64,000 nt of DNA from the NCBI GenBank assembly GCA_964016885.1, contig OZ024740.1, positions 257,424,001-257,488,000 on the forward strand, in the 5' to 3' direction. The translations under genes and the position numbers were made by a program. Below the pieces are notes generated by a model, which was not told the origin of the DNA, searched no databases, and worked only from the letters and a program-made list of their open reading frames with translations. The first letter of the stretch is position 1, and every line of letters begins with the position of its first letter. Source of the stretch: Eledone cirrhosa (Eukaryota). Shown piece by piece: positions 17,662 through 64,000 of this stretch.

Positions 17662-17826
17662 TTCGGACACCATGCTTTGACGTATAGAGTTACGGCCCTT
17701 GCCATTCTGAGTTCAAATCCCGCCGAGGTTAACTTTGCCTTTCATCCTTACGGGGTCGATAAAATAAAGTACCAGTAATACACTGGGATAATTGGTGGCC
17801 TTGTGCCAAAAACTAGAAACAATTAT
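17662..17826 (+). mobile_element. Dominant tRNA-SINE copy
   Basis: B-box, core and tail. Confidence 0.85.
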
Positions 17827-17903
17827 AATATTGTACTGTTCTACTATGTTGTTTTTCTTTGATGAATGTTCATATATATATATATATGTATATGTACACA
17901 CAG

Positions 17904-20689: not shown

Positions 20690-21665
20690 TCAAAAAAGTC
20701 CCATCCCTTCATTGAACATTGTATGATCATGTGCACGCAGGTGAATTTTCAGACCCGCTCTTGTTTTGCAGGTACTTTCACAGATGTGACACTTCAACTG
20801 TCTGTCTCCTTGTAAAACCGGCTGAGGTGTGTTTTCATGCATTTTACCATGTCTGGTCAGACCACCCGCTGACATACCTATTAAGCCCCATTCACTGCAA
20901 ATGTGAAGTGTGTGGCGGTAGGACCATGACACAGTTGGCTCGAATTTTGCCCAGCACGTGATTTCAGATGGTTAACAAAATCAGCTCCTCTTAAAAGAAA
21001 TAGGTCACATACATAGCACCTCAATTCTTGCTGAACCTTTGCAGGCATTGCACTTGAGATCCGCTTACGAAGTAAATGCTTCAAAACAACATGCTCCACT
21101 CGCTTTTTCTCAAATACATAATATCCATATTTGATGATCTTTCTCCATGATGTATGGTCTTCAGCCAGTCTCTCCCAGTTCTCCTTATCAATCTTCAGAT
21201 CTTTAAGATTGTCTTTTATGACATCCTTAAACCACTTCTTTGGTTTCTGCTGTGACCATTTTCGTCTGGTCAGCTCGCCATAACATAACTGTTTAGGCAG
21301 CCTTCCATCTTCCATACTTACCACATGACCAGCCCAACGCATCTGGTTCATGATAATCCTCATCTCAATAACGTTACTACCCGCTTTCTCAAGTACCACA
21401 GCATCAGGTGTATAAGAGGACCACTTGATGTTCAGGATGCATCGTAAACACGTTGATGAAATCTTTCCAACTCCCTGATATGATGTCTGTAAGTTGTTCA
21501 TTTCCCATCCATATAGCAGGGCTGAAAGAACACAGGCCTCATACACAGAGAGCTTTGTGTTTCTAGTGATACTGCGATTTGACCAGACTTGCTTCTCAAG
21601 CTTCCCGAAGCCAAGACTTCCTTTCTCAATTCTGTGATCTATTCCAGCATCGAGGGTACCATCTC
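20690..21665 (-). mobile_element. RTE-clade LINE 3' fragment (post-RT region with C2H2-like fingers)
   Basis: YEACVLSALLYG..CLRCILNIKW..QMRWAGHVVSMEDGRLPKQLCYGEL; CHICESTCKTRAGLKIHLRAH. Confidence 0.9.
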
Positions 21666-21849: not shown

Positions 21850-22201
21850 ATAATAATAATAATAATAATTGTTTCTACTTTAGGCACAAGGCCAGCAATT
21901 GTGCCTAAAGTAGAAACAAGTATTAATAATAATAATAATGGTTTCTTTATTGGCCACAAGAGCTAACATGAAGAAAAACATTACAGGCGGCACGGAACGG
22001 TACAGGACGATACAAAGTGGGTTTTGGCCGTGTAAAAAAGGTTATAACAAGAATATAGAAATATCAAAAAAATTCAAACAACAAAACTTCCCCAATAGGG
22101 AGGAAACTTCCGAGGGTCGCTCGTGGCGAAAACCACACAAAAGACCACGGCCACCCTGACCACCAGGGCCAGCGCCCTCTCTCAGTTTTCCACTCCTCCG
22201 T

Positions 22202-25200: not shown

Positions 25201-25543
25201 CCTGTAGACGGCTACTAGCCTGAAAGTATTGCGTTCGCTGCCTGTCAAGTAAATTACCACCGACTTACCTTCTGGGTTCAGAAAGATGGCCCGTATGACG
25301 AGATCCAAGCCTCTCCGAAAAAGCACAGCAACTCAGATCCCACTCCGCTCCCGTACGGCTGGGAGATGCGTATACATCGTAGCCACCGAGGATCGGTGCG
25401 AAGTCTCGTGCTTCGGAAATTCTGGTCTCGCTAATGGCCACCACTTCTATGTTTAGTGACCTGAGATCGGTAAGCAGGTGATATAGCTTCCAAGATGACC
25501 CCAGGCCACGTGCATTTATACTGCCTATTCTAAGTAAGGCCAT
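22202..25543 (-). pseudogene. ORF2: APE endonuclease, reverse transcriptase and C-terminal region, with many frameshifts
   Basis: IGSINARGL..ISETR; LDRVL; KSPGLDGLPYELY; PITLLNTGFKVLA..LATRL; VRQGCPLSSLLYVLALEPLL; *ADDVT; HPLRGGLGMP. Confidence 0.92.
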
Positions 25544-27358
25544 GTGGGTGAGAAATGGAGTAAGTGAGAAAGGATCACCTACCTCATCGTGTGGGAAAGG
25601 GACGGTTGAACCGTCCCTTTGGCTGGGCAGGGGTGTCTCCAAGATGATGTCGGTGTATATCCTCTTGGTAACTGACCCTCTAATGTCTCCAACTGCGTTG
25701 GGGACTTTTTCTTTTAAATGTTTATAATGTTCTATTTTAATTTCAATAATGTTTATATTTTTCGGGAGAGTTTTTGGTGTTGGTGGGGTGTAGTAATTTT
25801 TGTCCGTAATGTCTGTGTGCTGCTTTATATGTTCTAAGATTCTTTATTTGCCATGTTTATGGCTGTGTAATGTTTTGGGTGGGGTTTTGTTTTGTTGCTG
25901 TTTTCTTGTTGCTGCTGTTGGGTATGTTTGCCTTTTTGTGTTTGTGATGTTGATGTTTGTGGTGATGCTGGTAGTGGTGGTGTGGTGGTTGTTGGTGGTG
26001 ATTGTGGTGGCGTTGCTGCGAGTCTCATTACAGCCTTTACCCCTCTTTGTTTGCCTTTGTTTTTGGAGGGTGAAGCTAAGGGTTTTTTTCTTTTTTGTTT
26101 TTTTGTGGCCGACCGTTTGCCATTTCAATCCCACCTCAGACTACAGGTCAGATTCCATGGCATCTTGGAGATGTATGTGCTCCACGGCTGTTGGTGGTGG
26201 TAGTGGAGCCTTCTCCTGCGATTTTCTTGCTGGTGCACTACTGCAAATGATGCTACTGGTGTTGCCGCCACTGTTGCTGCTATTTTTGTTGTCTGTGGCC
26301 TTGGAAAACAACGGGTGCTACGTACGTTGCCCTCCTACTCACCGAGGAAGGATCTTCTGCGTTTGTTGCTTGTCCTGCTCTTGGTAGCAGCGTACCAGGC
26401 ATTGGAAGGAGGGGGCCTTCTTCTTTGCTGTCTTCTGCGGGAAAAGCCCCTGAGGTGACCCTTTGATCCACAGAGGTAACATTTTGGCCGTCTTCCTTCT
26501 ACACTTATAGGCAGTTGGAGTCCTTCCTCGATGTCTATGATATCGGGGATAGCGTCGATACATTCCTGGTCAGTTTGTATAAGCATTTGCATGCCTATAC
26601 CTGACCAGTTCTCCCTCACTATTTTCTCTACTTGCAGCATGGTCGTCCTGTTCTCGATTCCAGCAAGGACAGATGCGGCCACCCAAGCTATGGGCACGTC
26701 GGGTGGGACCTGGGTCACTTTGACCCTCACAATTTTCTGCCCGCAGTAGGAGGGCACCAATACTATCTCCTCAGTCTTTAGGGTTTCCAAAGAGTGAGAT
26801 TTCGCCTCTTGGGTGGTAGCGAAAAGTATGTCCTCTGTGACATACTTTCTGCCTCGGGTACTGTGGGTTTCGCGCGCCCAGACGCACCCCAAGGCCTTTT
26901 TGATTTGAGCATCCGTGGCTCTCTCCACCCGATGTGAGATTTTGCTTACGGTGCGGTAAGTCACCGTTCGTAGCTGCTGGTCCTTGAAAAAAATCGGGTG
27001 GAGGTTTTAGGGAAACTCTATTGGCATTTCTTGTCACCATGGCCCTTGAGACTGCCATCTCCTCCTCTGTGACTAACACTGTTTCGATATTTCTGACCAC
27101 ACCTGTAAAAGAAGTGGCCACTTTTTCAGCGGCACCACTATTGCTGCCGCTACTGGTCTTGCTGGTGATCGCTGTTACAGGTATCGATGTCATTGTTGAT
27201 GTTTTCGTTGGTACAGTTTTTGGTGTTATTGTTGTCATTGTTGTTGCTTTCGTTGATACTGTTGCTGCTGTTACTGCTATTGTGGCTGTTGTTATTATTG
27301 TTGTTTTTGTTGATACTGCTCCCACTGTTATTGTCGTTGTGGCTGTTGTTATTGTCAT
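25544..27358 (-). pseudogene. ORF1 gag-like protein with zinc knuckle and low-complexity linkers
   Basis: ISVEGRRPKCYLCGSKGHLR; homologous to 28789-30570. Confidence 0.75.
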
Positions 27359-27646
27359 TGGTATTGTCGTTCTCGACTTTACCGCTGTTATTTTTGTTGT
27401 TGCTGTTGTTATTGATGGTGTTGTTGTTTGTGTTGTTGTTGGTGTTATTGTTGGTGTTGTTTGTGTTAGTAATATTTGGTAATTTTAAATCTGTAACAAC
27501 ATCATTAAAAATGATATTGTTCCTCTTTTCCTTCGTAATATTTTCTTTTATATTTACCTCCGCTGGAACGCTGTCTTGTTGACATGTTGACAAAGTCTCC
27601 CTCTCTCTGTATTGTCTGACAGCGCTCTCTCTCTTTCTTTTGTTAG

Positions 27647-29376
27647 GCGCGCTTCCACAACCCGGGTCCATTGAACGGCTTTCGTCCCCTCGTGTCTCAG
27701 AGCACGCGATCTATCTCTGTCAACGCATCCTTCATGCTTTGCGTTGAAGAATTGGTCGAGAGTCAATTTCGCCGCAAGCACGTCGGTTGCGATGCCTGTC
27801 TCAAACGCATATTCTAGCTTTCTAAATAGCTCTACCTCTACTTTATTTTCCTCAATCACTACTCCTTTGCTAAACCTTATCGATACTACTCTAATAGCCT
27901 TTTTAAGGGTAAACCACCACCTGTTGTTGACGATCGTACCCGTCAACGAACGCTCAACTAATTCGCTAATCCGGTCTCTGTAAGATTTGGGCATCGCGAA
28001 CGACGCATTCAGCTTGCAGTAACCGGACCCTTGCCCATGGAGTCTATCTAAGTCAACTTCACAGATCACAAATTTGTAGTCTGTGTAGTTGACTACTTTC
28101 AATTGTGGACAACCTACACTAGCCTTGTCCGTTTCCTTACAGAATACCCTATCTAAATACGATCTGGATGACCCGACGGGTTTGCTCATGTCCACATTGG
28201 CACATTCGGATAATCCAGTCTATACCTGTCAGACAGTTGAAAACGTCTGAGCAGGTTGCTGAGGCTTATACATCCTCCTTCTTTGTCTACTAACCCCAAA
28301 TAATCCCAGTGTGCATCTAAGATACCGTTCCAGTCGCCCACTAACACTAAATTGCGGGACGTTTAAAGAAAGGTCCCTAGACGTCTGAATAAATCTGGCC
28401 GTCCTGCCCCCTGTTGGGGCGTAGACGGCTACTAGCCTGAAAGCATAGCTTTCGCTGCTGGTCACGTCCAGCACCACCGAATTACCTTCTGTGTCCAGGA
28501 AGATGGCCCGTATGGCGAGATCCAAGCTTCTCTGAAAAAGCACAGCAACTCCGCCTCCCATCCCAGACGACCGGGAGATGCGGATACATCGTAGCCGCCG
28601 AAGATCGGTGCGATGGCTCGTGCTTCGGAGATTCTGGTATCGCTGATGGCCACCATATCTATGTTTAGTGACCTGAGGTCGTTCAGCAGGTGACCCTGCT
28701 TCCCAGATAACCCCAGGTCACGTACATTTGTACTGCCTATTCTAAGTACGGCCATGCTGGATGAGGAAACGGCGCAAGTGAGAACGGATCAGTTACAATG
28801 ATCGTGTGAGGAGGGGACAGTAAAACCGTCCCTTCGGCTGGTCATGGGTGTCTCCAAGATGATATCGGTATATATTCTTTTGGAGAGTAAGCCCCTGAAA
28901 TTTCCAACTGCGTTGGGGAATTTTTGCTTTAATTGTTTATACATATCCAGTTTAATTTCGACAATTGTAATGCTTTGGGGTAATGTTCTTGGTGTTGGTG
29001 TGGTGTGGTAATTTGAGTCTGTAATGTCTGTGTGTTGTTTTATATGTTCCATTAATCCTTTGTGTTAGATATTTATGGCTGTGTACTGCGGAGGGGGGGG
29101 GGGGGATTTTGTTGCTGTTCGGTGTGTGGGCTCTGTTTGTTTGCGATGTTGGTGTTTTTGGTGATGCTGGTGGTGGTGTGGTTGTTGTTGGTGATGATCC
29201 TTGTGGTGGTGGTGTTGCTGCAAGTCTCCTTGCAGTCTTTACACCTCTTTCTTTGCCTTCATATTTGTGTTTCTTCTGTTTGTTGACATCCGTTTTCCAC
29301 TTCTCAGCCGCCTCATACTCCATGTCCGACAGTGAGAGGTCGGTGAGGGGTATGAGTTCTGCCCTCTCATTTGTCT

Positions 29377-29408
<32 letters not shown>

Positions 29409-30957
29409 GGTGGTGGTGGTGGTGGTGGTGGAGTCTGGTCTGCCGTTCTTGGCACAGGTGCAGCTATTGCATCTGTTTCTGTTGCTGCAGTTGCCGACGC
29501 TGTTTTTGTTGTCAGTGGCTTTGGTATGGGTGCCACGGACGTTGTCCTCCTACTCTCTGCAGAAGCTCTCGACTTTTTCGTGGACTACTCTGCTCCTGAT
29601 GGCAGCGCTTTCGTCTCTGGAAGGAGGGGCACCTTCGCCTTTGTTATTTTCTGTGGGCAGAAAGCTCTGAGGTGAGACTTCGATCCACAATTGAAGCACT
29701 TTGGGCGCCTTCTTTCAACAGATATGGGATGTTAGGAGCCATTACCGTGGTCTATTACGTCGGGAATAGCGCTGATGCAGTCCTGGTCCGTTTGGATGAG
29801 TATTTCCATTCCAATAGCGGACTAGGCCTCTCTCCCCAAACTTGGAAACTGCAGAATGGTTGTTCTATCCTCGATGCCCGCAGGAACAGACACGACCAGC
29901 CAAGGCACAGGTACGTAGGGCGGAACCTGGGTTACCCTGACCTTTGCAATTTTTTTCCCGCAGTAAAACGTGACTGTTATGTCATCACTCCGTAGGGTCC
30001 TCAGTGAGTGCAATTTTGCTTCCTGGGTGGTAGCAAAAAGGACGTCCACAGTAGCATATTTCTTACCACGGGTGATGTGGGTTTTTCGTGCTCACATAGT
30101 TCCCAAGGCCTTCTGGATTTGGGCATCCAAGGCTCTCTCCACACGACACGATTTCGTGGCAATCGTGTGGTATGACACTGTGCGTCGCTCTTGTTCCGCC
30201 AGGAAGTCGGTTGGTGGTTTCAAGGACACTGAAAATTCAGTTCTGGTTACCATGTGTTCTGCGACCGCCATCTCCTCCTCTGTGATCAGGACTGTTTCTA
30301 CGTTGCGAGCCACCTTTGCAAGAGAGATGGTCCCGTTTTCAGTGGCACCATTGTTGCCGTCGCAACTGCTGCTATTGGTCTTGTTGTTGTTGGTGCTGTT
30401 GTTGCTACTGCTACAAACGGTGTTGTTAGTGCTGCTGCTGCTGCTGCTGCTACTACTGCTACCACAGGTGTTTTTGTTAATACTGCCGCTGCCGCTGCTA
30501 CCTCCTTTGTTGTCAAATGCATCAGCAGCAGCTGATTCTCGGCCGCCGCTTGATGAAGAAGAGAAAGAAATGGCCTTTGCCTCACTTTCACTATGTGACT
30601 ATGAAGAAGACGAAAAGGAAGGCGAGACTCCACGCTGACAGCTGAGTGAAGAAAGAGAAGGTTGAGAATGATACCTTGCTGAAGGAGTAATTTTTGTGTG
30701 GAGACATGGTAGAGAAATAGATTTATTGAATGACGCAATCTTTCTTTTTTTTTGTGGGCGTATTTGCTAAATGCAAAGTTCAAATCGGAATTTAGCCCCG
30801 AAGGGCAAAATACCGATTAATTACGACCACTTTCCAGAGAAGCGGGGTGTGTTTAAACGCAAAACAGTATAAATTTTTACAATAAGTTCGCAATAAAAAC
30901 TGTTAAAAAATCACAAACTTACGGGAACAAAATTTCCTGCGACGTGTATACTTCCAC
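27647..30957 (-). mobile_element. Tx1/L1-like element copy 2 (5'UTR, ORF1 and APE; 3'-truncated)
   Basis: MAVLRIGSTNVRDLG, GGGVAVLF, LVAVYAP, SYLDRVF; homology to copy 1 ORF2 stops at ~27647. Confidence 0.88.
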
Positions 30958-31149: not shown

Positions 31150-31625
31150 TAAAGTCCTAGGGGAAATAACAACAAAGAGAAAGAGCAACCTTCATGAAAA
31201 ATCCCTTCATAGCACCTTCTTTAAGAAAACGGAATTCAGAGATCCACAGACATGGATCTTTTCAATAGAGGAGCACTTAAAAAAGCTACAGAAGGAATAC
31301 TAATGGCTGCACAGGACCAAGCCCTCAGAACGAACTGGGTTAAACACCATATTAACAAGGAGGAGGCTAGCTCACTGTGTAGGATCTGTAGAGAGAGAGA
31401 GGAGACTGCGGCTCACATGGTATCCGAGTGGAACCAACTAGGCTCCCCTTTTTGGAACACTTCACAAGGCGTGCTTGCTGGGAACAGCAAGAACCCTCCG
31501 ATACGTCCTGAATATCTGAGGCTGCAGGTAGCGGCTTCATTTTCATTTCAACAAACTTTCCAGTTAAATAACATCAATGACTGAGACTCAAACAATAGTA
31601 ATAACGATAATAATAATATACTATT
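31150..31625 (+). mobile_element. R4/Dong-like (RLE-type) LINE 3' fragment, internally deleted, with (TAA)n-like tail
   Basis: LKKATEGILMAAQDQALRTNW..CRICREREETAAHMVSE. Confidence 0.75.
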
Positions 31626-31967
31626 ATTAATATTCGGTTCGTTTGCAAGCAAGCAGCCTCATAACAACATGCATGTTTTCTAGACGACGAACGCCATCTT
31701 TTTGTTCCAGCGGTAGCAGAGAGAAAAACAATATTCAATGTTTTCGGTGTTATTATCCCTTATCAAGACTGTGAATTTATCTAGTCTCTGCAATCCCCTG
31801 TAGCTGATGAGGATACATAGTATTATCTAATGTATATAACGGCTGATTAACCTAATTTGCATATAGAGCGATATACACCCACGTTTGCCGAAAATTAAAA
31901 ACAAAATTTGTTTTGCTCGAACATGTTGGATACATAAATGTATTGTGGGTGAATAATAATAATATAA

Positions 31968-32158
31968 TAATTGTTTCTACTTTTGGCACAAGGCCAGCAA
32001 TTACCCAGTGCATTACTGGTACTTTATTTTATCGACCCCATAAGGATGAAAGGCAAAGTTAACCTCGGCAGGATTTGAACTCAGATCAGAAAGGGGCGTA
32101 ACTCTGTGCTACAAAGCATGTTGTCCGACCCTCTACCGATACTGCCAAACCACCACCC
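31968..32158 (-). mobile_element. Dominant tRNA-SINE copy, near full length, between (AAT)n tracts
   Basis: Reverse complement of the consensus. Confidence 0.85.
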
Positions 32159-32884
32159 ATAATAATAATATAATAATGTTATTAATAATCGATTCGTTTG
32201 CAAGCAAAGAGCCTCATATAACCATGTGTGTTTTCTAGACGACTGACGTCATCCGTTTGTTCCATCGGTGCATTTCCGTAAGCATTTGTCCAAAACACAT
32301 TTTCGAACCGGTACCTGACTTGCACACATCAGATTAAAGAGTCGAGTAATGTTCGGTTGGTGGTTGATGAAGTGCATTAATAGAAATGTCACGGGTTTGT
32401 CTTATATGAGAATGTAGGCTGATATAAGCAAATGACTTTCAAATGAAAGCAACATTTCTTTCAAGACGGGAAAACCATACGAACTTGCAACGATATATTA
32501 CATTTTTCAGTTCATTTACATTAATGTTTAAGCAAAATGCAATATTTATATTTCCATAGGCAAGAAATCTATGCAGACAGAGATATTCGCATAATATATA
32601 TTTATATTTGATGGCGTGTGACTTATTCTTTATATATATATATATATATATATAACCAATTCTAGTTCTAGTTCTAAATACGAAACCTCAGTCTTGGGAA
32701 ATGAACATGTAAGTTACTGAGTATTTTATAAATATGTGTACCCTGAGATTCAGTCTGACCCTTTCAATTATAGGTCCAACTCAGTACCATCCATATACAT
32801 TAGATAGTAACATATTTCCGATAGATAGACAGAAAGGCTTTGCCTCTACCATATTAAGAAATCAGGAATGATCAGTGAAATGTG

Positions 32885-34320: not shown

Positions 34321-34353
<33 letters not shown>

Positions 34354-34362
34354 GTATATATA

Positions 34363-34977
34363 ATAAACAAGAGAGATGGTTTTATTCGTACATCCCTATT
34401 ATATTCGTTGTACGTATTTCGAAGATATAAGGTAGTTATATAATAACTGCCTTACGTGTTTTTCTTCACACAAATATACAAACGAGATATAAATATCCAT
34501 TTATGTTACCGGCTGCACAGGCTATTCACTTCGTCGACCAATAAGCATATGTCCAAATTTCTCTAGAAGCAGTCCTTTTTTGTGCAAGAGTTAGTTGTCG
34601 CTGTTGGCGTTGTTGCTTGTAAACTAGCTAGGGTATCAAGTTACCAGATGGGTTGCTTGATTCTTAGTGAGGCATGTTAGTCTATGTTTTATTTATATTT
34701 TTATACTAGATTCTTTCACTTAGATATTAATTTTAATTTTAGATATGTGTACTTTGATGCTGATGTTATAATGTATCTATGTATTTATGAATGGTTAATT
34801 AATTTTAATTATTTCGTGGCCTATTTAATATTATTTACGGAGGTTTTAACTATATGCTCTACGGAATGTCTTATTTATTTTGTGTAAACAAATTTTGAAT
34901 GTGTCAGAGCATTTATTAATAATTTTGTGCCTACTATTATGATGTGTAAAATCTTGTACAACGGACTCACCCCGGAG

Positions 34978-35198: not shown

Positions 35199-35706
35199 TC
35201 CCTTTATGATCTGAGTTCAAATCCCGCCGAGGTTCACTTTGCCTTTCATCCATACGGGGTCGATAAAATAAAGTACCAGTAATGTACTGGGTAATTGCTG
35301 GCCTTGTGCCAAAAGTAGAAACAATTATTAATATTGGCAGTATCGGGAGAGGGTCTGACGCCATGCTTTGTCTGACGCCTCTATGGTCTGACTTCAAATC
35401 CCACTGAGGTAATTTTGCCTTTTATCCTTACGGGGGTTGATAAAATAAAGTACCAGTAATGCACTGGGTAATTGCTGGCCTTGTGCCAAACGTAGAAACA
35501 ATTATTAATATTCGATGGTTTGGTAGTATCGGTAGAGGGTCGGACGCCATTCTTTGACGCATAGAGTTACGGCCCTTGCCATTCTGAGTTCAAATCCCGC
35601 CGAGTTTTTACTTTGCCTTTCATCCTTACGGGGGTCGATAAAATAAAGTACCAGTAATGCACAGGGATAATTGCTGGCCTTGTGCCAAAAGTAGAAATAA
35701 TTATTA
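35199..35706 (+). mobile_element. Head-to-tail cluster of three dominant-family SINEs
   Basis: Three B-box/core/tail sets ending near 35328, 35505 and 35705. Confidence 0.88.
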
Positions 35707-35902
35707 ATATTCGAAAAACTCAGATTACATTTATTGTATTTAGCCATGTAGAGCGAAATGTTCTTTCTTTATATATATATATATATTCATTAGTTAAGCA
35801 AAGCAAGACCACACATTTCACAAGGAAGATATTATTAAAAGATTGTCAACATATTTTAGTTTGATGTAAGGAATGAGAGAATAATAATAATGATATTAAT
35901 AA

Positions 35903-36082
35903 TAATTGTTTCTACAAGGCCAGCAATTATCCAGTGCATTACTGGTACTTTATTTTATCGACCCCGTAAGGATGAAAGGCAAAGTCAACCTCGGCGGAAT
36001 TTGAACTCAGAGCGTAAAGGGAAGTAACTATGCTGGAAAGCATAGCGTCCGACCCTCTACCGATACTGCCAATCCACCGCCC
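35903..36082 (-). mobile_element. Dominant tRNA-SINE copy
   Basis: Very similar to the reverse complement of 12540-12730. Confidence 0.85.
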
Positions 36083-36485
36083 TGGATTAATAATAATAAT
36101 GTCCGTTTACAATTGTTTCGCTACTCCATATAATATTTCTGGATCAGATGACTATATATCATAATTGATCTGGTTCAGTTGAAAATAATTAACATATTTA
36201 AAAGACAGAGCGGCTCATCGGAACTTCAAAGGAATATAAATAAAAATAATGAGAGAATGTTTCATAATATAATGTTCCATATATCGGTTTTTACTATGGT
36301 GTCTTGGTTGCATTATAATTATAAAAGAATATAAAGAAAGAGAGACAGGTAAACAAACACGAATGATAAAGCAACGTAAAGAGTGGAAAAATGAGAAAAA
36401 TCAAGTCAATGATTCAATTGAACATAAGAATTTGCGAATATTGACGAGAAGACGAAAGACACATCTTATCCGTGCGAAAGTAAGC

Positions 36486-36528
<43 letters not shown>

Positions 36529-36641
36529 ATTTCGCCTCAAGCATAGCGTTATACAAATATGTATAGAAATTTCGTATTTCAAAAGAAACACGGCTTTAGG
36601 AAGTCGCAGTTATGCAAACACACTTGCAAGCGATGGGAGGG

Positions 36642-36685
36642 ACCGTCCCGAAGAAGGCCACTCAAGCCTGAAATGTATAGACGGT
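36642..36685 (+). ncRNA. Type I hammerhead, degenerate sibling of 42700-42743
   Basis: ACCGTC-CCGAAGA-AGGCCACTCAAGCCT-GAAATGTATA-GACGGT; core U4 is C. Confidence 0.65.
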
Positions 36686-36902
36686 TGTCCCCTTGCTTCT
36701 GCTGGACACCACCAGAGGGCGTTAGGCCCGGTGTTTGCATAGCTACGGCTAAAACCGTGTTTCGTTAGAAATACGAAATATATATATATATATACATATT
36801 AATAAAAGGAATTCCAACTTTGTCTTTGCTATCAGTCAAATTTGCAATTTTCAACAATTTTCAACAGTTGAAAATTGCAAACTTGACTGTCACCACAGAA
36901 TA

Positions 36903-39791: not shown

Positions 39792-40340
39792 CATACAGAG
39801 TGGTTGCCTCCCCAGCAACAATTAGAAATTTGTTTTGGTGCTCCGAAATGTGTATATGAATGTACGTATTGTATATAATATACTGTATATATATTTTAGA
39901 ATATTTTGAAGGCCGACGTTAGTCACTACCTTAAATTCATAACGAAAGGTATTCTCCCCTCACCCTCTCTCTGTTTTCTTACTACATTTCCACTCATCTA
40001 CTCACTTCCGTTTTCCCTTCGAGTCTTTCTGTGTACAATTGTTGTCGTTCTGACCAGTCATTTGTTTTCTCTCTCTCACGCTTGTTGTTAATATGCTTTC
40101 AGAACTTACGTTCGGCCACTTAGTATTAACTATTTCCCTTTCTTTCGTTTTTTTTTTTTTTTTTTTTCGGTTTATTCGTCCATCATCCGCAGTGTTTCTT
40201 CCCGGATAGTTTTCCTTTTTAGCTGTTAACCCACTGTGGTGAAAGGTCTTCTCTCACTGTACTGTAATTTTTTAATTTATAAATTGAATATGGCAAAGCC
40301 GGCGATTTATCGCTCGTATACAGAAAATTGACTGGCCAGT

Positions 40341-40439
40341 CTGGTGATATGCAAATCTGGCTGATCAGTGAATCTGCTAATATGCAGATCTGGCTGATCA
40401 GCCAGTCTGGTAATATGCAAATCAGGCCGATCAGTCACT
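40341..40439 (+). promoter_or_regulatory. 3 x 33 bp tandem repeat carrying octamer ATGCAAAT motifs upstream of a hammerhead
   Basis: ATGCAAAT at 40349, ATGCAGAT at 40382, ATGCAAAT at 40415; regulatory role is inferred. Confidence 0.45.
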
Positions 40440-42008: not shown

Positions 42009-42433
42009 TCTCCGCATGCAGTTGACAGCCGAGAGGAAAGAGTATTCAATACCGTAAAAGAGTTTACTTATTCATGTTATTTAAGTTAAATACTGAGTCT
42101 GGTTCCACGGGAGGTTCGCTTACTAGCAGCTGAAACTCCAGAGTAACAAGTATCACTATTTAGCCTTAATAAAACTAATATAGAAAATAAAATAAATGGA
42201 AATGAGAGTGGGGTTCAGCTGTGGGGTAGGGAGAGTAATTCGGCGTACTTGTGTTGGGGTTGTGGTCGCAGATATGCACCGTGTGGGTGTGAGTAGGTGG
42301 AGTGCATATCATGATGCGCTTGCGCGTGCGCGGGTGTTAAGTGTCTTGTTAGTGGTGTGTGTGTGAATGTGTGTACAATTTATAGGAAAAGAAGCTTCGC
42401 TAACATCAATTTGTTGTACATGCTATAAAGATC

Positions 42434-42480
<47 letters not shown>

Positions 42481-42481
<1 letters not shown>

Positions 42482-42900
42482 CTACGGCTTCCTAAAACCG
42501 TATTTCTTTGGAGATACGAAATATTTATACATATTCTATGAAGCTATGCTTGAAGCGAAATCCTATTTCTTATTTATTATAAGTTGAGCCAACTTATGCA
42601 GCTTCATATGAAAATGAGATTAATCACCTCATTTACACAGACGAGAAAACTATATATTCTCGCCTGTCTTCTAGTCCAGAAGTCGCAAGCGGTGGGGGGA
42701 CCGTCCTGACGAAGGCCAGTTAAGGCTGAAATGCATAGACGGTTGTCCCCCTTGCTTCTGCTGGACATCACCAGAGGGCGTTAGCCCCCCCCCCCGGTGT
42801 TTGCATAGCGACGGCTTCCTAAAACCGTATTTCTTTGGAGATACGAAATATTTATACATATTGTATAAAGCTATGCTTGAAGCGAAACCTATTTCTTTTT
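42481..42900 (+). mobile_element. Hammerhead-bearing 327 bp monomer with ~90 bp terminal redundancy, in (TA)n
   Basis: 42481-42572 is repeated at 42808-42898; one hammerhead lies between. Confidence 0.85.
42700..42743 (+). ncRNA. Type I hammerhead ribozyme with intact core
   Basis: Stem I ACCGTC/GACGGT; CTGACGA; stem II GGCC-agttaa-GGCT; GAAA; palindrome ATGCAT; predicted AUA cut after 42737. Confidence 0.88.
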
Positions 42901-43525
42901 TATGTATATATATATATAAACCAGATGCGGTTTTTGAGCCCTTTATTTATTATCATTTGCCTTATATAACGTGATCTGTATAGAATGTTTTCTAACGTTC
43001 AACATTTTTTCAGTATATATATATATATAAACAAGAAAGACGGTTTCATTTGCCCTTTCGTATTTATTTCGTTATACGTATTTCAACGACGTATGGCAGT
43101 TGTATACAGCTGCCCTGTGTGTCCTCTTCAGACAAAAATCCAAACGAGATGTAAATATCCATTGGTATGTTACCGGTCATACGAGTTATTCCCTTTGCCG
43201 ACCAGTAAACATGTGTCTGAAAATGTTCAGTTATTAGTTCTTATATGTGTTGGCGATATATATTCCAATTGACGTTGTTGCTTGTAAACTAGCTAGGGTA
43301 TCGAGTTGCCAGATTAGCAGCTTGATTGCTAGTGAGACATGTATCAACTGTTAGTCTTTTTTTTATTTATATTTTTATACTAGATTCTATCACATAGCTA
43401 CTAATTCTAATTTTCTATATTTGTACTTTGATTCTGATGTCATAATGTATCTATATATTAATGAATGTTTAATTAATTATTTGGTGGTCTATTTTACATT
43501 ATTTAAGTTTTAACTATATACTCTA

Positions 43526-44747
43526 CTAGCAGAGGTACCCGGCGTTGCTCGGGTATTAAATAGCAGTTATGTATACCATTTATGTCAATACTTCAGTGCT
43601 GCTTCGAAAACTATACTTTTATAAACTCATCGACTTTTTCCAAAAGGGGGTTCCTGCCCTCAGGGGTCGCCTACTCAATATGTGCCAATTCTGAGAGTTC
43701 ACATTCATCTATAGAACAAACGTATTCCATGTGTCAAGTTTTGTGAAAATCGGTTGCGAACTCCAGAAGTTATGACGTTTTTTTTGCATTGCACTGCAGT
43801 GCTTCAGTCGACTCCAAGGAAGTGGTTAAAGGGCGTTATCCGCCGGGAGGTCCTATAATCAATATCTGGAAAAATGAAAGTGTCCATGACCATCCGGAGT
43901 ACATGAGTAACCTATGTCTTAAGTTTGGTGAAAATACTGTAGAAATGCATAAGGTTTACACACACGCGCGCACGCGCACGTGTGTGTGTGTGTATGTATT
44001 TGTGTGTGCGTATGTATAAGTATGTGTATGTTCGTCGGTGCATACGTATGTACTGGCCTAAATCTTCACTATTTATTTTTATTATGTTAAGGCAAAGTTA
44101 AAATCCCGTCGAGGTTAACTTTGCCTTTCATCTATATATATAAAACTGAGGTTGTCTGTCTGTCTACTAAAACCTTCGGCACACATCTCCTCTTAAACCG
44201 TACGTTCAAATTTCGGTGAAATTGCTACACTTATAGATGAAAAGTACCAGTAATGTACTGTTTAATTGCTGGCCTTGTGCCAAAAGTAGAAACAACTATT
44301 TTAATAACCTGTCATTTTCGTTTACAATTTTATTTACATCATTCTTAAACTCCGGGGCTGGAAATCATTCGGTTATTTTAAATAGAATATTAGGCTAACG
44401 ACTCCATTTACACCATAAACTTGGTCTTCTCTTTGCATGAAATTGTTCTTCTCGGTCCACCGCGTCGTTTATACGTAACATAAATAGATAAGCAAATGAC
44501 GCCATAAAAGGGAAATAACTCGTCTCTCATCTCTATTTATACATTTGAACTGAAAAATCAATACATTACAAATTCGATTTTTACACTTGGCGTGGGTCGA
44601 TTTGAAAATTTATTTGACCGATGGTTCCGCCGGACCTTCATCTATAAGTGTAGCAATTTCACCGACATTTGAACGTACGGTTTAAGAGGAGATGTGTGCC
44701 GAAGGTTTTAGTAGACAGACAGACAACCTCAGTTTTATATATATAGA
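43526..44747 (-). mobile_element. Non-autonomous Helitron-like insert (possibly composite)
   Basis: Minus strand 5' A|TCTATATATATAAAA; 3' hairpin CCCGAGCAACGCCGGG then CTAG|T; interrupts the repeat homologous to 34363-34982. Confidence 0.75.
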
Positions 44748-47982: not shown

Positions 47983-48480
47983 ACTTCGCTCTGCATGGCT
48001 GAACACAATAAATGTAATCTGAGGTTTTCGAATATTAATAATAACATTCGATTCGTTTGCAATTATGCAAACAAGCCTCAATTTTATAGCCATGTCAGTA
48101 GAATGAACACTTCATTCTTGCTCTTGTGTTGGCATGCGAACAGAACTGCAGACACTAATGTTTCTGGGTATCACCCTTCATCAGTACAGCTCACTTCCCC
48201 TGCCAAACTGTCAGAGCTAGTGAAAATATAAGCTATATATCTTTTTTATATGAACTTGGAAAAGCCGGCCATTTATCCCTCGTATACAGGAAACTGACTG
48301 GCCAGTCTGCTGTTATTCAAATCTGGTTGATCAGTAGATCTGATAATATGCAGATCTGACTGATCAGCCAGTCTGCTGACACGCAAATCAGGCCGATCAG
48401 TCACTGTAATTTTGAAAATAGCATATATTTTCAAATGAATCGAATGTTATTATTAATATTCGAAAAACTCAGATTACATA
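47983..48480 (-). mobile_element. Family Z hammerhead element with internal inversion and terminal fold-back, in (TA)n
   Basis: Homologous to 40285-40580, 62880-63430 and 35027-35199; 48435-48479 is an inverted copy of 48011-48057. Confidence 0.8.
48146..48189 (-). ncRNA. Type I hammerhead ribozyme with intact core (family Z)
   Basis: Minus: CTGTA-CTGATGA-a-GGGT-gat-ACCC-a-GAAACATTAGTGTC-TGCAG. Confidence 0.85.
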
Positions 48481-49703: not shown

Positions 49704-49795
49704 ATATATATATATATATATATATATCAATCGGGGGAACCACAGTGAGTAAAGTACTCAATACAAAGCAGAGTATAAATATTTAATATAGAAAA

Positions 49796-49843
49796 GGCTT
49801 CTGCAGGACTAGAATTGTTTCATTCGGGAGTTATCATCAGAGC
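49796..49843 (-). ncRNA. Hammerhead motif, degenerate, left arm of fold-back
   Basis: Minus: GCT-CTGATGA-TAACTCCCGAAT-GAAACAATTCTAGTCCTGCA-GAAGC. Confidence 0.5.
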
Positions 49844-49889
49844 TTCCTGATGATTTCTCCCGAATGAAACAGTTCTAGCCCTGTAGAGC
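49842..49889 (+). ncRNA. Type I hammerhead with conventional stem III, right arm of fold-back
   Basis: GCTTC-CTGATGA-tTTC-tccc-GAAt-GAA-ACAG-ttctagcc-CTGT-A-GAGC. Confidence 0.7.
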
Positions 49890-49915
49890 CTTTTCTATAT
49901 TAAATATATATATTA

Positions 49916-50784: not shown

Positions 50785-53700
50785 CAGAGCTGTTCTTCTA
50801 GATAACGAGTCGCAAGTGGCGGATAGCGATACGGCCACCAGATATGATGGTTTGTTGCGACATAACTGGGTAACTGCCGGACCAATAAGCTATCCCTGAC
50901 CAACCGCGTTAAACTACTAGGGGAGATTGAGCAATGGGTGGCACCTGCAACTCACAAGAAACTTTTCACAATCCAATGACGTTGCTACGACGAGGCGAGT
51001 AAAGGCCGCCTCTAAATAAGCCTAGTCTTCGCAGGTTTGACAATGTACCAGATTGGGGACTGGTGTGAATAACACCGCTGAGAATGAAACTGCAATATGA
51101 TGAGGAAAAAAAAATACGATACCACGCTGTCCTCCGTGTGAGTTAACAAGGGACATGCCCAGGCCTTAGGTAGAAGGGCCTGTTCGAAAAATATATAGCA
51201 GTCCTCATTTCATGCCGCAAAAACTGGTAATGGGACTGCAATATGTCCTGGGAGGCGTGGGATGGACGTACAAAGCTTGCGTATCCCGAGACCCCAAAAT
51301 GGTCTGGAAGGTAGCAAACCGCAACAGTTAACACCTGGAGCAGGAACTAGTGGAGGAGTCTAGATACTACCAGCTAGATATAGTCGGCGTTTCCTCAACA
51401 AAGTTCCGTGGCTCTGATACTGTAGATTTGTATGGAGAACGGAAACTCCACTATTCAGGTGTGGCGCCAGAAATAGCTGAATATATTCTGAAAGCCTCTG
51501 GCTTTCTGAATGTGTTATGGACTGGATCCCGTTAAGAGGAAGGATTTACCTCTTCAAGCTTAGGCTGAAAGATAGATCTCTGTGGGTGGTGCAAGTTTAT
51601 GCAACAAACAAGGAGTCCGAATACAGGTCCTACCTCGACGAAGTCACTGCAGCATTAGATGTAGTTAAGACTGAGTCATATGTCCTTATGGGAGACTTCA
51701 ATGCACTTGTTGGCACTGACGACCTGACATGGAAATGAGTGATTGGAAATAATGGCGACCCCAATCTAGATACAAATGGAGAGGCCTTGCTGGACTTCTT
51801 TTCTGGTAAAGGACTCTCTACTATGAACACCGTCTTCCATCATAGATACATTTATAAATATACATGGTGTATATAATTGATTTTTTAATGGTCTCTGATC
51901 TCTTTGATTCTGTGCTGGATGTACATGTTAAGAGAGGGGCTGAGCTGTCAACTTTTCACCAGCTAGTTATCTGCAGCTTGATACTGCCTAAAGCCAAAGA
52001 AGCCTACAAAACTGACTGGTCGAGAGTGACCTACAGGATAAAGTGGGAAGCATTAGGGGATACGGAAATCAGGACCTGGTATGCAGATACTATTGCATCC
52101 ACATTCAGGGAACTTCTTAAGCAAAGTGAGAATGTTGAGAATGAGTGGGAAATGTTCAGCACGGCAGTTTCTACATCAGCTGTTAAATTCTGTGGGCAAA
52201 AGAGGCTTGGTGTGGCACCAAATGGCAGGAAGACACTTTGGTTCAATCAAGAGGTAAAAAATGTCACCCGAACAAAGGTTGCTTACAAAACTTGGCTTGG
52301 AAATAAGTCCTCCCTGTTGCAATTGTAGTACAAGCAGGCACTAAAATTCGCAGCAGAGACAGTAAAAACATCCAAAGTAGAGACAAGCAAAAACTTTGGG
52401 GTTAAGCTGGAATCCTAACCTAGATCGCAACAACATCTTCGGATGTATACGAGGTGCATCTGCGAGTGGTGACTAATCTCTCAGAGGCTGAGTTCGCAAG
52501 AGCATTCAAAGTACTCAAATGTGGCAAAGCAGCTGGGGAAGATGATATCCGGCCCGAGATGTTAAAAGCCGTAAATAGAGAACCTAATCAATGGCAATCG
52601 GGTGTGATATCCCAATTTTCAAAAAGGAAGACAAAGGCGATTGTACCAATTACAGTGATATCTCCTTATTAAGTCTCACTGGTAAATCCTGTGCTAAGTG
52701 TCTAGCAAAGAGAGGCATGGAGATTGTCGAGTTCAAGTTTGCTAACAGTCTTGTTTTTGCCCCGGACGCACCATAAACGACCCAATATTCACACTGCGGT
52801 AGGTATTCGAAAAATCAGGGGAGTATTGCGAAGAAGTATATTTGTTTTTTTTGTCGACCTTCTGAAGGCATATGACCGGGTTTCTCGGGGCTTGCTGTGG
52901 AAGGCTGTGCAGGAGTATGGGATTGATGGTCAGCTTGTTGCTGCGCTGATGTCTCTATATGAATGCGCGAGTATTTGTGTTCGGATAAATGGTGCTAAAT
53001 TGAAACCATTCAATGCTGGAGTGATTATTTACATGAACAGGATTGAAAAGCGCAGCCGGGTTGGAAGTACTATCATGACTGAAGGGTGTAAAATGAGTTG
53101 GCTGGAATTTGCAGATGACATGGTGTTACTTAACTTGACAGAAGATGATATTCGATTTGCATTTGTTAGGTTTGAGGTTGAGTGCTGCATGGCTGGAATG
53201 AAAATCAGTGCTGCGAAAACTGAATTACTCGTCCTCTCAAGAAAGCCTGCGATGTGCACGCTACATGTGTATAGAGTTCCACAGAAGCAGGTGGAGAAGG
53301 CCAAGTAACTCAGGGCAGTGCTCATGTGTGATGGAAGGCAGGAGACTGAATTAAGTGCAAGAATTGCAAAAACTGGGGCAGTAATGCCAGTTACACTATT
53401 CAGTAACCAGAAGAAGGGAGGTAGGCGTAAAAGCCAAACTCGTTGTCTTCAATTCGGTTTTCGATAAAGTGCGTAGCTCGGAGATTAAAAATTCACTCCA
53501 GGTAGAGCTGCTATGTCTCCTAATAGAGAGATCACAGCTCCGTTATTATGGGCATGTGGTTAGAATGCCCAAGGAAAGAATCGGTGGTGAGATTTTACGG
53601 GTAAAATCAAGAGGTGGGAGACCCAGGGCTAGACTGCGAAGAGTTTGTGGGGATAACATCCATGAGCTTGGCTGGTCACGCTTGGGGATCCAGATAGATC

Positions 53701-57405: not shown

Positions 57406-59431
57406 CCAACAGATTTACCCGGCGTTGCCCGGGGTTTGAAATTATGCTAAGAATATACAGCTAGGAAGTAAAAGAAGAAAATGATTTGTCCCCAACCTGT
57501 CAAAATAAGCAGAAGTCTTCAATAATTAATGCAAACGAATATTTAGTGCAATCTTTGTACACATAAAACTATGCTGCTAATGAAGGAAACACTGAACAGG
57601 ATGTAGTTATACAAATGATTAAAGTCAATACACGTTGCAAATCTGTAAAAAAACAGGCAGTTTTGCGAAAGTACAAAAAGTTGTAATGAAAGCAGAGTTG
57701 TATACAAACAAAAAAAAAAACAATGAGAGTAGAATAAGAGAAAATGTATTATTTGAGAGCATCCTTTGCTGTGTATGGTTAAATTTTGAACTTATAATCC
57801 AAAATATCCTGCATGACATATTCATTGGTCTGTTTTGTAATGAGTAAAGTGAAGTCAAGGCAGAGCTGTAATAAGTGTTTTTGTTAACACTAAAGCACTT
57901 CAGGATAGACGATATTCTTTGTTTTTCTTTTCGGAACAAACGCAAAGAGATTATCTCTACTGCCAACTCGTGAGCAGGCAACGTAGAATTGTCCATGCGA
58001 AAGCAAGGTTCATCCAAGTGAATTGCAGCGACGGTCAGAGTATGGCCTTGCGGCGTGTTTATGAACATCGCAAAGGCAACACGAAGGGGAAATTGGATTC
58101 GCCGAAAGGAGAAAGGAGTATCCACGCCTGATGTAGTCAAGCTAATTTTTGTTATTATCACATCCTCGCCTTTTCCACATCCGGATAGAATGGTAGCGTC
58201 AATACTAAGTGGAGACAGTTTTTTAACCACAAGGCGTGTACCATTGCATAGTTTTGGAGGAGTGATATTTCTCAGCAAAATAACTGGCGTTCCCTCTTTC
58301 AGAACCAATGTATTAGGGGGTAAACCGGGAGGATTTAAAGAATTTAGAAATTCAACTGGATAATTGACCGCATCGTGTGGATCACATACAGTATCAATAG
58401 ATTTATATATCCGTGGACATCCAGGAAGAAGCTGAAGAAGCTGATCGTTAATACAGCTAACCGTGATATTTTTGGGTGCAAGAATAGCTCTTTCGCATAG
58501 CCAATCAAGATTCGTATAGTTATCACGCAAGTTCGGAAATACACTCGCCTTGAGATCATCGACAGTTTCAACTACATTGCAGATGTGATCAATTGCTATG
58601 TGTCCATCTGTATCCGGAGGTAGGTTACCATCTCATATTGTAAGAATGTCTCCAGAACATGTTGATGACAGAGGTTGCCTATGCAATCTTGCACGCATGT
58701 TGGTAGTTCTTCTTAATGATGTCACTTGTCGCCACAATGGTGAAGACTTAAGACATGCATTTACCGCATCTGCTCTTGTTCCTTTCGGTATTATAGGAAG
58801 AGTCTGTCTGAAGTATCCTGATAGCAGAAGAGTGACCCCTCCCCCCCATAACATCACTACAATCCCGTATGTCTTGCAAAGACCTGTCTAGTGCCCCAAG
58901 AGCTTTGTGCGCCATTGTGCACTCATCCCAAACAATAAGGTGACACCTTCGCAGCAGATGAGCCCTTTCGGAGTCTGTGGTAATATGACTAGTAGGAGTT
59001 TCCAATTTTGCCAAATCAAGGGGCAATTTAAAAACTGAATGTGCCTTCCTTCCACCAGGGAGCAAAGTTGCTGCGATTCCAGAGGACGCAACTGATAATA
59101 GGCATAGGCAATGCCTGCCTCACATTTGGTAAAAAAAGCACGAAAAATGTAAAAGTAATTGCAACTTTTAATTTGCATGGAAAATCCCATAAGGATTTTG
59201 TCTTCATTGTTTTCTCCCTTACATCATGCACTTTAGAAAAAATAAATTTGCTATCGATTTTTTATTTCTCAACGTGGATCGATTTGAAAAATCCTTGTGA
59301 TGTGACGATCTTAGCGACAGGTGCAACAAGCACAGAAAATTTGGTCAAATTCGGTTGGGAATTGTAAAAGTCTTAGCTGTCCAAAGTTGTCCACAGACAC
59401 ACAAACACACATCCTCGCTTTTATATTTATA

Positions 59432-63486: not shown

Positions 63487-63833
63487 TTGTATGTATGTGC
63501 GTGTGTATTGTTATATTTGTGGAGGGTCATATTGTTATAATATTGACAGGAATATATAATAAAGCACACTTACTCTTTGGTATGGATTGGTTTTCGCTTC
63601 CGTATATTTTATATCCCCATAGTTAATTTAGCTGGCAATCAATGTTTACCATTGATTGACCACCAGTTAAAATATAGATATAAATATATATATATATATA
63701 TATATAGACTCTCACAGTACTTTATTTACACACATGTGACATCATCAGTGATACACTTATGCTTCCACCCGTTGTATTGTAATGTCTACTTAGAATAAGT
63801 AAACATTACAATACAAGAACAGGTAGCATAGTA

Positions 63834-63878
63834 GTTCGACTGATGATGTCACTGGTGTGTGATGAAAGAACATTGAGC
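63834..63878 (+). ncRNA. Hammerhead motif with degenerate stem III (family W)
   Basis: GTTCGA-CTGATGA-t-GTCAC-loop-GTGAT-GAAAGAACA-TTGAGC. Confidence 0.55.
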
Positions 63879-64000
63879 GACTATATATATATATATTTAA
63901 CTGTTAGTCAATCATTAATAAACATTGATTGCCAGCTAAATTAACTATAGGGATATAAAATATGAGGAAGCGAACACCAACCCAAACCAAAGAGTGGGTG

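What the first reader, a model, noticed from the sequence alone, without database searches (positions are those of the whole stretch)
42481..42900. Best-preserved hammerhead in a 327 bp terminally redundant monomer
Intact core, 6 bp stem I extended past a bulge (GGGGG/CCCCC, then GCAAG/CTTGC), 6 nt loop II and ATGCAT stem III. A bulged stem I with loop II is the arrangement that gives tertiary contacts in fast type I hammerheads. About 1.3 units between (TA)n tracts is what reverse transcription past one turn of a circular RNA would give.
Basis: partly seen in the sequence, partly recalled or inferred. Interest (0 to 1): 0.85.

Follow-up and report, generated by a model that had tools for sequence, protein, structure and literature searches.

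The report
Decayed hammerhead-carrying Penelope-type repeat copy
This is one decayed copy of an abundant small jumping element of a known kind (a non-coding, ribozyme-bearing passenger of Penelope-like retrotransposons), probably from an octopus; nothing shows that it came from a circular RNA, but it shares a promoter-like signature with other ribozyme elements nearby.

Summary
Real: a 327-bp unit with a 94-bp direct repeat (1.28 units) between (TA)n tracts, holding a type I hammerhead whose one-pair, palindromic stem III implies dimer cleavage. Public DNA shows a high-copy family (4,835 contigs laid in one run). This copy is not pristine. Its relatives read C at 42725, which gives a clean 4-bp stem II and a 7-nt loop; here stem II survives only slipped (G·U closing pair, extra A). 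Six more family-majority bases differ. A paralog 6 kb away shows the Penelope hallmarks: head-to-head inversion, 31-41-nt tail, TA target. Best reading: a non-autonomous Penelope-like element (animal non-LTR retrozyme), inserted by a helper's reverse transcriptase and now a dead end. With one hammerhead, this locus cannot cut out a unit-length RNA. A 1.28-mer fits a linear tandem transcript as well as a circle; no RNA run was available. Unexpected extra: an octamer + TCA + TATA-like module lies 80-98 nt upstream of the core in three hammerhead families in the window (5 of 10 cores against 4% background). It is a candidate promoter, and this copy's octamer is mutated. New member of a known kind.

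The parts
42437..42480 (.). (TA)22 microsatellite, left side of the target; the last ATA also matches the element (microhomology)
42481..42574 (+). 5'-truncated partial unit (first direct repeat); 3 substitutions against the family majority (42536, 42540, 42572)
42575..42901 (+). one full 327-bp unit, non-coding, a string of hairpins (62% paired in the circular MFE, z -5.3)
42606..42615 (+). octamer site, ATATGAAAAT here; 42611 is C in 99.5% of X1 depth, 374 of 435 X9 reads and 90% of X6 depth, which makes the octamer ATGCAAAT in the family
42623..42657 (+). TCA motif 15 nt after the octamer start and TATA-like box (42651-42657): candidate internal promoter; predicted start near 42681 (inferred from the usual TATA spacing)
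42674..42705 (+). 5' strand of stem I (42700-42705) and its extensions; 42680 (C in 99% of X1 depth, 128 of 128 X9 reads) is a mismatch in this copy's distal helix
42706..42737 (+). type I hammerhead core: CUGACGA, extra A42713, slipped stem II GGCC/GGCU with loop AGUUAA, GAAA, palindromic AUGCAU stem III, predicted cut after A42737
42738..42766 (+). 3' strand of stem I and its extensions
42808..42901 (+). second direct repeat, the element's 3' end (inferred start of reverse transcription); family depth falls sharply at about 42895 and loose ends at the equivalent 42571/42577 run into TA repeats
42902..42917 (.). short (TA)n, right side of the target; no target-site duplication discernible
36524..36621 (-). 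paralog: inverted arm, equivalent to 42797-42892
36626..36791 (+). paralog: direct arm, equivalent to 42685 up to 42851-42861 (84% identical); family-type stem II but U4 changed to C; ends 31-41 nt short of the inverted arm ('tail')

Best explanation
A decayed, dead-end copy of a high-copy non-autonomous Penelope-like element (animal 'non-LTR retrozyme') in a probably octopod genome. Mechanism: (1) Loci with two or more tandem units are transcribed from an internal octamer/TATA-like promoter just upstream of the hammerhead [module seen; promoter function inferred]. (2) The type I hammerhead cleaves well only when two copies pair through AUGCAU, trimming multimers to 327-nt monomers, some of which may be circularised by a host ligase [structure computed; cleavage and circles inferred from mussel and axolotl retrozymes]. 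(3) An autonomous Penelope-like RT/GIY-YIG protein nicks (TA)n and starts reverse transcription inside the RNA, about 115-165 nt downstream of the cut site [fixed 3' ends, TA targets, inversion and tail seen; helper not found]. (4) Here it copied one whole unit plus 94 nt, passing an intact cleavage site, so the template was an uncleaved tandem transcript or a re-ligated circle [not separable]. (5) The copy then decayed by about 2-3% per repeat, which hit the octamer, stem II and the distal helix [shown against public DNA].
For: High-copy family with a defined 3' end: X1 laid 4,835 contigs, summed depth 17,000-201,000 inside against 134-2,612 from 42895 on; X9 laid 1,913 reads; loose ends behind 42571 (14 contigs, 202 reads) begin with TA repeats. 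No coding frame: 0 Pfam hits in the 2 frames of 75 aa or more over the element, and no GIY-YIG hit among 118 frames scanned of 122 listed. The paralog at 36524-36791 is a head-to-head inversion whose ends differ by 31-41 nt. This matches the published Penelope structure of partial tandem, inverted 5'-truncated copy and 30-40-bp tail (PMC3846280), which arises from two internal RT start sites downstream of the hammerhead (PMC11167929). Two more head-to-head hammerhead loci lie in the window (about 48040-48430 and 49774-49912). A one-pair stem III with a palindromic tetraloop is the dimer type (PMC4209133; PMC7229834). Size 327 nt and GC 44% fit the retrozyme definition of 170-400 nt and under 45-50% GC. 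A sister variant seen in loose-end consensus has stem II GAAC/GTTC around the same loop, i.e. three pairs changed on both sides (agreement only 0.65). The best hit of a Helitron fragment in the window is Octopus bimaculoides (61%), and O. vulgaris has 6.83% Penelope-like DNA and 31 recently active families.
Against: No autonomous helper and no shared terminus with one was found (no genome held). No RNA evidence of any kind. No array with two or more hammerheads of this family was shown: the head-to-tail joints in X1 are single short contigs and are ambiguous. Rfam does not recognise the hammerhead. The family's 10.1-11.1 pair is A-U, not the usual G-C. X9 reads vary a lot around stem II (42715 A in 307 of 543; 42725 not C in 161 of 554), so many copies are degenerate. 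The inversion and tail rest on one paralog. The host taxon rests on transposon proteins at about 60% identity, with non-cephalopod hits close behind. The seven private bases could in part be assembly errors or species differences between the window and run X1.
Confidence: 0.8

Rival explanations
1. One reading: this insertion is the cDNA of a 327-nt circular RNA copied past one turn.
For: Reverse transcription crossed an intact cleavage site. The unit folds compactly as a circle and keeps stems I and II. Circles are shown for coral, mussel and axolotl retrozymes, the last with the same weak stem III, and are proposed as templates. A second family in the window forms a 2.8-mer of 425 bp.
Against: 1.28 units need no circle: the 5' end lies 70 nt inside the upstream unit's cut site. 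The paralog's direct arm starts at the 42685 equivalent, about 4 nt from the predicted start and 53 nt upstream of the cut site, as expected from an uncleaved linear transcript (one case). For the one Penelope-like element studied in vitro, unprocessed RNA was the dominant substrate, hammerhead mutants did not affect insertion, and no RNA-seq reads ended at the cut site. Only 1 of 9 Xenopus retrozyme dimers cleaved in vitro.
Confidence: 0.35
2. The unit is the solo pseudo-LTR (pLTR) remnant of an autonomous, ORF-bearing Penelope-like element rather than an independent non-autonomous family.
For: pLTRs carry a promoter and a hammerhead, most insertions are 5'-truncated, and Xenopus retrozymes are sisters of pLTRs.
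Against: Here the unit's 3' part joins its own promoter part head to tail with no ORF remnant, and no frame follows the hammerhead. The listed loose ends at the unit ends are TA repeats or sister variants, not one shared unique flank (19 shown, 528 not shown).
Confidence: 0.2
3. A newt-satellite-2-like repeat spread mainly by DNA-level amplification, with the hammerhead incidental.
For: Unit size and dimer-type hammerhead resemble the amphibian repeats of 330-350 nt, for which an snRNA-type Pol II promoter is reported (secondary citation).
Against: Copies are dispersed and truncated, end at fixed points in (TA)n and include inversions; unequal crossing-over does not produce these. Satellite 2 is now itself classed as a retrozyme.
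Confidence: 0.07
4. Chance motif or assembly artefact.
For: No Rfam match; the region is rich in microsatellites.
Against: The two repeats differ at 5 sites, each stem is supported by folding, and the family is present in independent runs.
Confidence: 0.02

Closest known systems
Animal non-LTR retrozymes (Cervera & de la Pena 2020, PMC7229834; Li, Clavereau & Pollet 2026, bioRxiv 10.64898/2026.07.22.740005)
   Same: Non-coding repeat of 170-400 nt, low GC, highly self-paired, with one type I hammerhead per unit and many copies; dispersed 'monomers' are described as likely non-transposing offspring. Stem III is like axolotl HHR_Amex1.
   Different: This locus has one hammerhead, so it fails the 2026 paper's 'active retrozyme' criterion of two units with complete hammerheads. 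Expression, cleavage and circles are untested. The parts read of these two papers name no cephalopod and describe no promoter motif.
Pseudo-LTRs of endonuclease-bearing Penelope-like elements (PMC4209133, PMC3846280, PMC8557442, PMC11167929)
   Same: Partial tandem, head-to-head inverted 5' copy, 30-40-nt tail, AT-rich/(TA)n target without a visible duplication, hammerhead upstream of the RT start sites, TATA-like box.
   Different: No ORF. The hammerhead has a canonical 6-bp stem I and 4-bp stem II with an extended, bulged stem I rather than the minimal form. The helper clade is unknown.
Newt satellite 2 (Epstein & Gall 1987; Coats, Zhang & Epstein 1994; both seen only as citations)
   Same: Repeat of a few hundred bp with a dimer-dependent type I hammerhead; an internal Pol II promoter of snRNA type is reported there, and an octamer-containing module is seen here.
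   Different: Mollusc host (inferred), dispersed partial tandems rather than long arrays, and a TATA-like box. That the newt promoter uses an octamer is my recall; the paper could not be opened.
Schistosoma Sm-alpha hammerhead SINE (via PMC6765202 and PMC6155905)
   Same: Promoter followed by a type I hammerhead in a short repeat; single copies lose the ability to propagate.
   Different: Sm-alpha uses a Pol III promoter and is a fast monomer with loop-loop contacts; this one has a 1-bp stem III and an octamer/TATA-like module.

Membership tests
Type I hammerhead ribozyme | Conserved core C3 U4 G5 A6 N7 G8 A9 ... G12 A13 A14 A15.1 ... U16.1 H17 | tested here: met
   42706-42712, 42728-42731, 42736-42737; none of these positions except N7 is among the 40 variant rows shown (103 rows not shown)
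Type I hammerhead ribozyme | Stem I (about 6 bp) open-ended, stems II and III closed | tested here: met
   stem I pair probability 0.90-1.0
Type I hammerhead ribozyme | 4-bp stem II directly after A9, usually closed by G10.1-C11.1 | tested here: inconclusive
   This copy: extra A plus G·U closing pair, -4.9 kcal/mol in the slipped register and 0.0 in the family register; paralog in the family register -4.4. An extra base at this place is a known variant, so loss of activity is not certain.
Type I hammerhead ribozyme | Stable monomeric stem III (needed for a fast monomer) | tested here: not met
   pair probability 0.0; hairpin +5.0 kcal/mol; palindrome duplex -4.7 to -6.7
Type I hammerhead ribozyme | Loop 1-loop 2 tertiary contacts; self-cleavage | not testable with these tools
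   needs probing and a cleavage assay; loop II differs from the family form
Rfam hammerhead families | Score at or above the gathering threshold | tested here: not met
   0 matches in the window; no hammerhead family among 16 matches at E<=10 in 42400-43000
Animal non-LTR retrozyme | Non-coding unit of 170-400 nt, GC under 45-50%, highly self-paired, with a type I hammerhead | tested here: met
   327 nt, GC 0.44, z -5.3 to -6.2, no Pfam frame
Animal non-LTR retrozyme | Multi-copy family in the genome | tested here: met
   4,835 contigs laid in X1 and 1,913 reads in X9; a second locus in the window
Animal non-LTR retrozyme | Tandem units, each with a hammerhead (two or more) | tested here: inconclusive
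   Not met at this locus (one core). For the family, the go-back joints in X1 are single short contigs and ambiguous; no genome held.
Animal non-LTR retrozyme | Expressed as linear and circular monomers | not testable with these tools
   no RNA holder listed
Penelope-like element (non-autonomous) | Partial tandem with 5' truncation and a fixed 3' end | tested here: met
Penelope-like element (non-autonomous) | Head-to-head inverted 5' copy and 30-40-bp tail in some copies | tested here: met
   paralog 36524-36791, tail 31-41 nt; one locus only
Penelope-like element (non-autonomous) | Sequence similarity to the terminus of an autonomous RT/GIY-YIG element | not testable with these tools
   no genome; no GIY-YIG hit in 118 window frames
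Penelope-like element (autonomous) | ORF with RT and GIY-YIG domains | tested here: not met

The most novel reading that the evidence does not exclude
Several sequence-divergent hammerhead retroelement families in a cephalopod share one internal promoter cassette (octamer, TCA motif 15 nt later, TATA-like box about 43 nt later) placed 80-98 nt before the ribozyme core. It would be a molluscan counterpart of the snRNA-type promoter of newt satellite 2, and it would drive tandem masters of this family to yield 327-nt circular RNAs through dimeric cleavage. That would give a concrete answer to how animal retrozymes come to be transcribed in most tissues.
Probability: 0.3. Interest if true: 0.55.

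Novelty: new member of a known kind. Interest (0 to 1): 0.3.

Why it matters
As a single locus it matters little: it is one of very many decaying copies of a class described in 2020 and tied to Penelope-like elements in 2026. Two things remain useful. First, my searches found no description of hammerhead retroelements in cephalopods, although I did not see the O. vulgaris repeat library, which may already hold the family under another label. Second, the promoter-like module shared by three hammerhead families gives a specific, testable hypothesis for how retrozymes are transcribed; no paper held retrozyme + promoter + octamer together. The practical lesson is that this copy is the wrong one to assay alone: family-type copies should be tested beside it.

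Tried and rejected
Rfam at gathering and E-value thresholds: no hammerhead match. Whole genome not held, so no census, helper search or array search. Sequencing runs: 11 listed, no RNA holder listed; this says nothing about expression. An exact 24-mer of the hammerhead in metagenome contigs gave 0 matches. Earlier notes by sequence and by place: none. The LINE ORF1-like frame gave no homologues; the RT frame gave 17 hits, of which only one carried an organism name (a cuttlefish, rank 13). A strict automated test (exact octamer, core with up to 2 mismatches, stem II of 3 bp or more) found only 2 of 13 octamers with a hammerhead downstream against 2% background, because family C's stem II is irregular. 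The looser core-only test gave 4 of 13 against 0.4%; I chose it after seeing the first result, and copies of one family are not independent. My structural scan missed family C, since it allowed only short stem III inserts. No target-site duplication found. Go-back joints in DNA contigs were rejected as evidence for circles or long arrays. Summed contig depth was not converted to a copy number. Co-folding two copies gave a stem-I-swapped dimer without stem III pairing; the active dimer is pseudoknotted and the program cannot score it. Two primary papers (Coats 1994; Lunse 2016) are not held.

Full report
WHAT IS THERE. The stretch 42481-42900 is 1.28 copies of a 327-bp unit: offset 327 gives 77 of 80 matches, the 14 other offsets tried give 19-25. 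The repeats 42481-42574 and 42808-42900 differ at 5 of 94 positions. A (TA)22 tract lies on the left and about 7 TA units on the right; no target duplication is visible. The unit is a string of hairpins (z -6.2 linear; z -5.3 circular) with no Pfam-matching frame. It holds one type I hammerhead: stem I 42700-05/42738-43, CUGACGA, stem II, GAAA, AUGCAU, cut predicted after A42737. Rfam does not score it.

THE RIBOZYME IS REAL BUT NOT PRISTINE. I laid 4 of 11 listed public runs on 42481-43000 at 80% likeness. X1 laid 4,835 contigs and X9 (raw RAD reads, same species label) 1,913 reads; two other organisms gave 23 and 223 contigs. Summed X1 depth is 17,000-201,000 inside the element and 134-2,612 from 42895 on. 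Seven positions of this copy differ from at least 96% of X1 depth: 42536, 42540, 42572, 42611, 42680, 42725 and 42810 (40 rows shown, 103 not shown). Position 42725 is C in 98% of X1 depth and in 393 of 554 X9 reads. With C, stem II is AGGC/GCCT with a 7-nt loop and no extra base, as in the window paralog. In this copy that register scores 0.0 kcal/mol, and stem II forms slipped (GGCC/GGCU, -4.9, probability 0.98-1.0) with an extra A and a G·U closing pair. An extra base at that place is known in working and PLE hammerheads, so inactivity is not certain. Position 42680 breaks the distal helix. Stem III is one pair plus a palindromic tetraloop: it does not form in the monomer (probability 0.0, +5.0 kcal/mol) but forms a duplex between two copies. 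This is the slow, dimer-dependent type of amphibian repeats and PLEs. Loose ends show a sister variant with stem II GAAC/GTTC around the same loop, which suggests selection on the helix, but that consensus has only 0.65 agreement. Against a tidy picture, X9 reads vary strongly around stem II (42715 A in 307 of 543).

HOW IT GOT THERE. Loose ends at the 3'-end equivalents 42571/42577 run into TA repeats. The paralog at 36524-36791 is an inverted arm (equivalent to 42797-42892) head-to-head with a direct arm (42685 to 42851-42861), both running out into (TA)n, with ends 31-41 nt apart. Partial tandems, an inverted 5'-truncated copy, a 30-40-bp tail and microsatellite targets are the published marks of endonuclease-bearing Penelope-like elements; the tail comes from two internal RT start sites downstream of the hammerhead. 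Two other hammerhead loci in the window are also head-to-head. No helper was found: there is no GIY-YIG hit among 118 frames scanned of 122 listed, and no genome is held. The host is probably an octopod. The best hit of a Helitron fragment is O. bimaculoides at 61%, though other taxa follow closely, and O. vulgaris has 6.83% Penelope-like DNA with 31 recently active families. If the two repeats were identical at insertion, 5 of 94 differences give 2.7% per copy (95% range 0.9-6.2%). On that paper's scale (0.09 = 25 My) this is roughly 7 My, range 2-17; this is an inference.

CIRCLE OR NOT. Copying passed through an intact cut site, so the template was uncleaved or re-ligated. A circle is not required: the 5' end lies 70 nt inside the position of the upstream unit's cut site, so a linear transcript of a two-unit locus suffices. 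The paralog's direct arm begins about 4 nt from the predicted start and 53 nt upstream of the cut site, as an uncleaved linear template would give (one case). In the only PLE studied in vitro, unprocessed RNA was the main substrate, and only 1 of 9 Xenopus retrozyme dimers cleaved. On the other side, coral, mussel and axolotl retrozymes do make circles. I put the chance that the family makes circles at about one half, and that this insertion came from one at about 0.35. This locus has one hammerhead and cannot release a monomer; a transcript from its own promoter would lack the promoter. It is a dead end.

AN UNEXPECTED SHARED MODULE. Position 42611 is C in 99.5% of X1 depth, 374 of 435 X9 reads and 90% of X6 depth, which makes ATGCAAAT (the octamer; name recalled) 98 nt before C3. 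The same octamer lies 88 nt before both intact cores of a 425-bp array (8336, 8761) and 80 and 93 nt before cores of a third family (40495, 62923). A TCA motif follows exactly 15 nt after the octamer start in all six sites aligned, and a TATA-like stretch follows about 42-44 nt after it in families A and B, less clearly in the others. Of 10 exact core strings in the window, 5 have an octamer (at most 1 mismatch) 70-110 nt upstream against 4% background; 4 of 13 exact octamers have an exact core downstream against 0.4%. A stricter test that required stem II gave 2 of 13 against 2%. These are three families, not five independent events, and the tests were set after the pattern was seen. Three of the five cores without an octamer have their upstream part replaced by an inversion. 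An octamer at 31862(-) led to a further degenerate core about 95 nt downstream. In organism C (X6) depth peaks over this module. Promoter function is inferred. PLE pLTRs hold promoters, and newt satellite 2 is reported to use an snRNA-type promoter. No paper held retrozyme + promoter + octamer, and searches listed nothing on this point.

WHAT I READ. bioRxiv 10.64898/2026.07.22.740005: parts 1-3 of 5, supplements not seen. PMC7229834: passages and sections 14 and 17. PMC4209133 and PMC11167929: parts 1-2 of 4 each (23, 26). Passages only: Craig 2021 preprint and PMC8557442, PMC3846280, PMC2220036, PMC6155905, PMC6765202, PMC8967140, PMC13282606 with a term search of its one supplement. Coats 1994, Epstein & Gall 1987 and Lunse 2016: citations only.

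VERDICT. Observation partly confirmed; interpretation partly supported. A decayed member of a non-autonomous Penelope-type hammerhead family (non-LTR retrozyme), confidence 0.8; new member of a known kind; interest 0.3, most of it owed to the shared promoter-like module.

Noticed in passing
window 7877-9077 (+): 425-bp array of 2.8 units (96-98% alike) ending in TA, with two intact type I hammerhead cores (8336, 8761; palindromic ACTAGT stem III) and a degenerate third; circular fold z -5.8. It meets the two-hammerhead retrozyme criterion and is a better circle candidate than the finding.
   Followed up: partly
window 40495 (+), 48184 (-), 62923 (-): Third hammerhead family: a possible 3-bp stem III with tetraloop and GUC cut site by eye, irregular stem II, and a 33-bp tandem of octamer-like units upstream (40340-40437). 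The 48040-48430 locus is a head-to-head inversion.
   Followed up: partly
window 8246, 8671, 31864(-), 40347, 40413, 42606, 63018(-): Octamer + TCA + TATA-like module upstream of hammerhead cores; 6 of the 7 exact ATATGCAAAT sites in the window lie in these elements and the seventh lies in a TA tract.
   Followed up: yes
window about 31610-31870 (-): Degenerate hammerhead element found from its octamer; its 3' part has a second copy at 32159-32269.
   Followed up: partly
window 49774-49912: Palindromic head-to-head pair of hammerhead-like cores (49840 minus, 49847 plus) running into (TA)n, with the junction just upstream of the cores.
   Followed up: no
window 63840 (+), within the inverted repeat 63572-63995: Another CUGAUGA...GAAA core string with a possible 5-bp stem II; no octamer upstream.
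   Followed up: no
window 12512-12739, 17663-17833, 31952-32179, 35199-35714, 35886-36107 and others: Abundant short interspersed repeat with well over ten fragments, one as a 177-bp tandem; it looks like a tRNA-derived SINE (not tested).
   Followed up: no
window 22200-30800 (-), 20884-21663 (-), 51858-53305 (+), 57628-59119 (-), 11287-11718 (+): Only transposon coding remnants were recognised: LINE-like RT pieces (one partly duplicated, 24464-26065 against 27648-29267), Pif1 helicase pieces of Helitron type and a DDE_1 transposase; no host gene.
   Followed up: partly
window 43014-43526 and 34349-34862: A 500-bp repeat (76% alike) starts about 110 bp right of the element; it and the element's right flank both begin with similar TATATATAAAC-AGA-CGGTTT ends.
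   Followed up: no
runs X1 and X6, loose ends before 42728: Sister variant with a different stem II around a similar loop; in organism C only the promoter-like part and the 3' half of the hammerhead align.
   Followed up: partly
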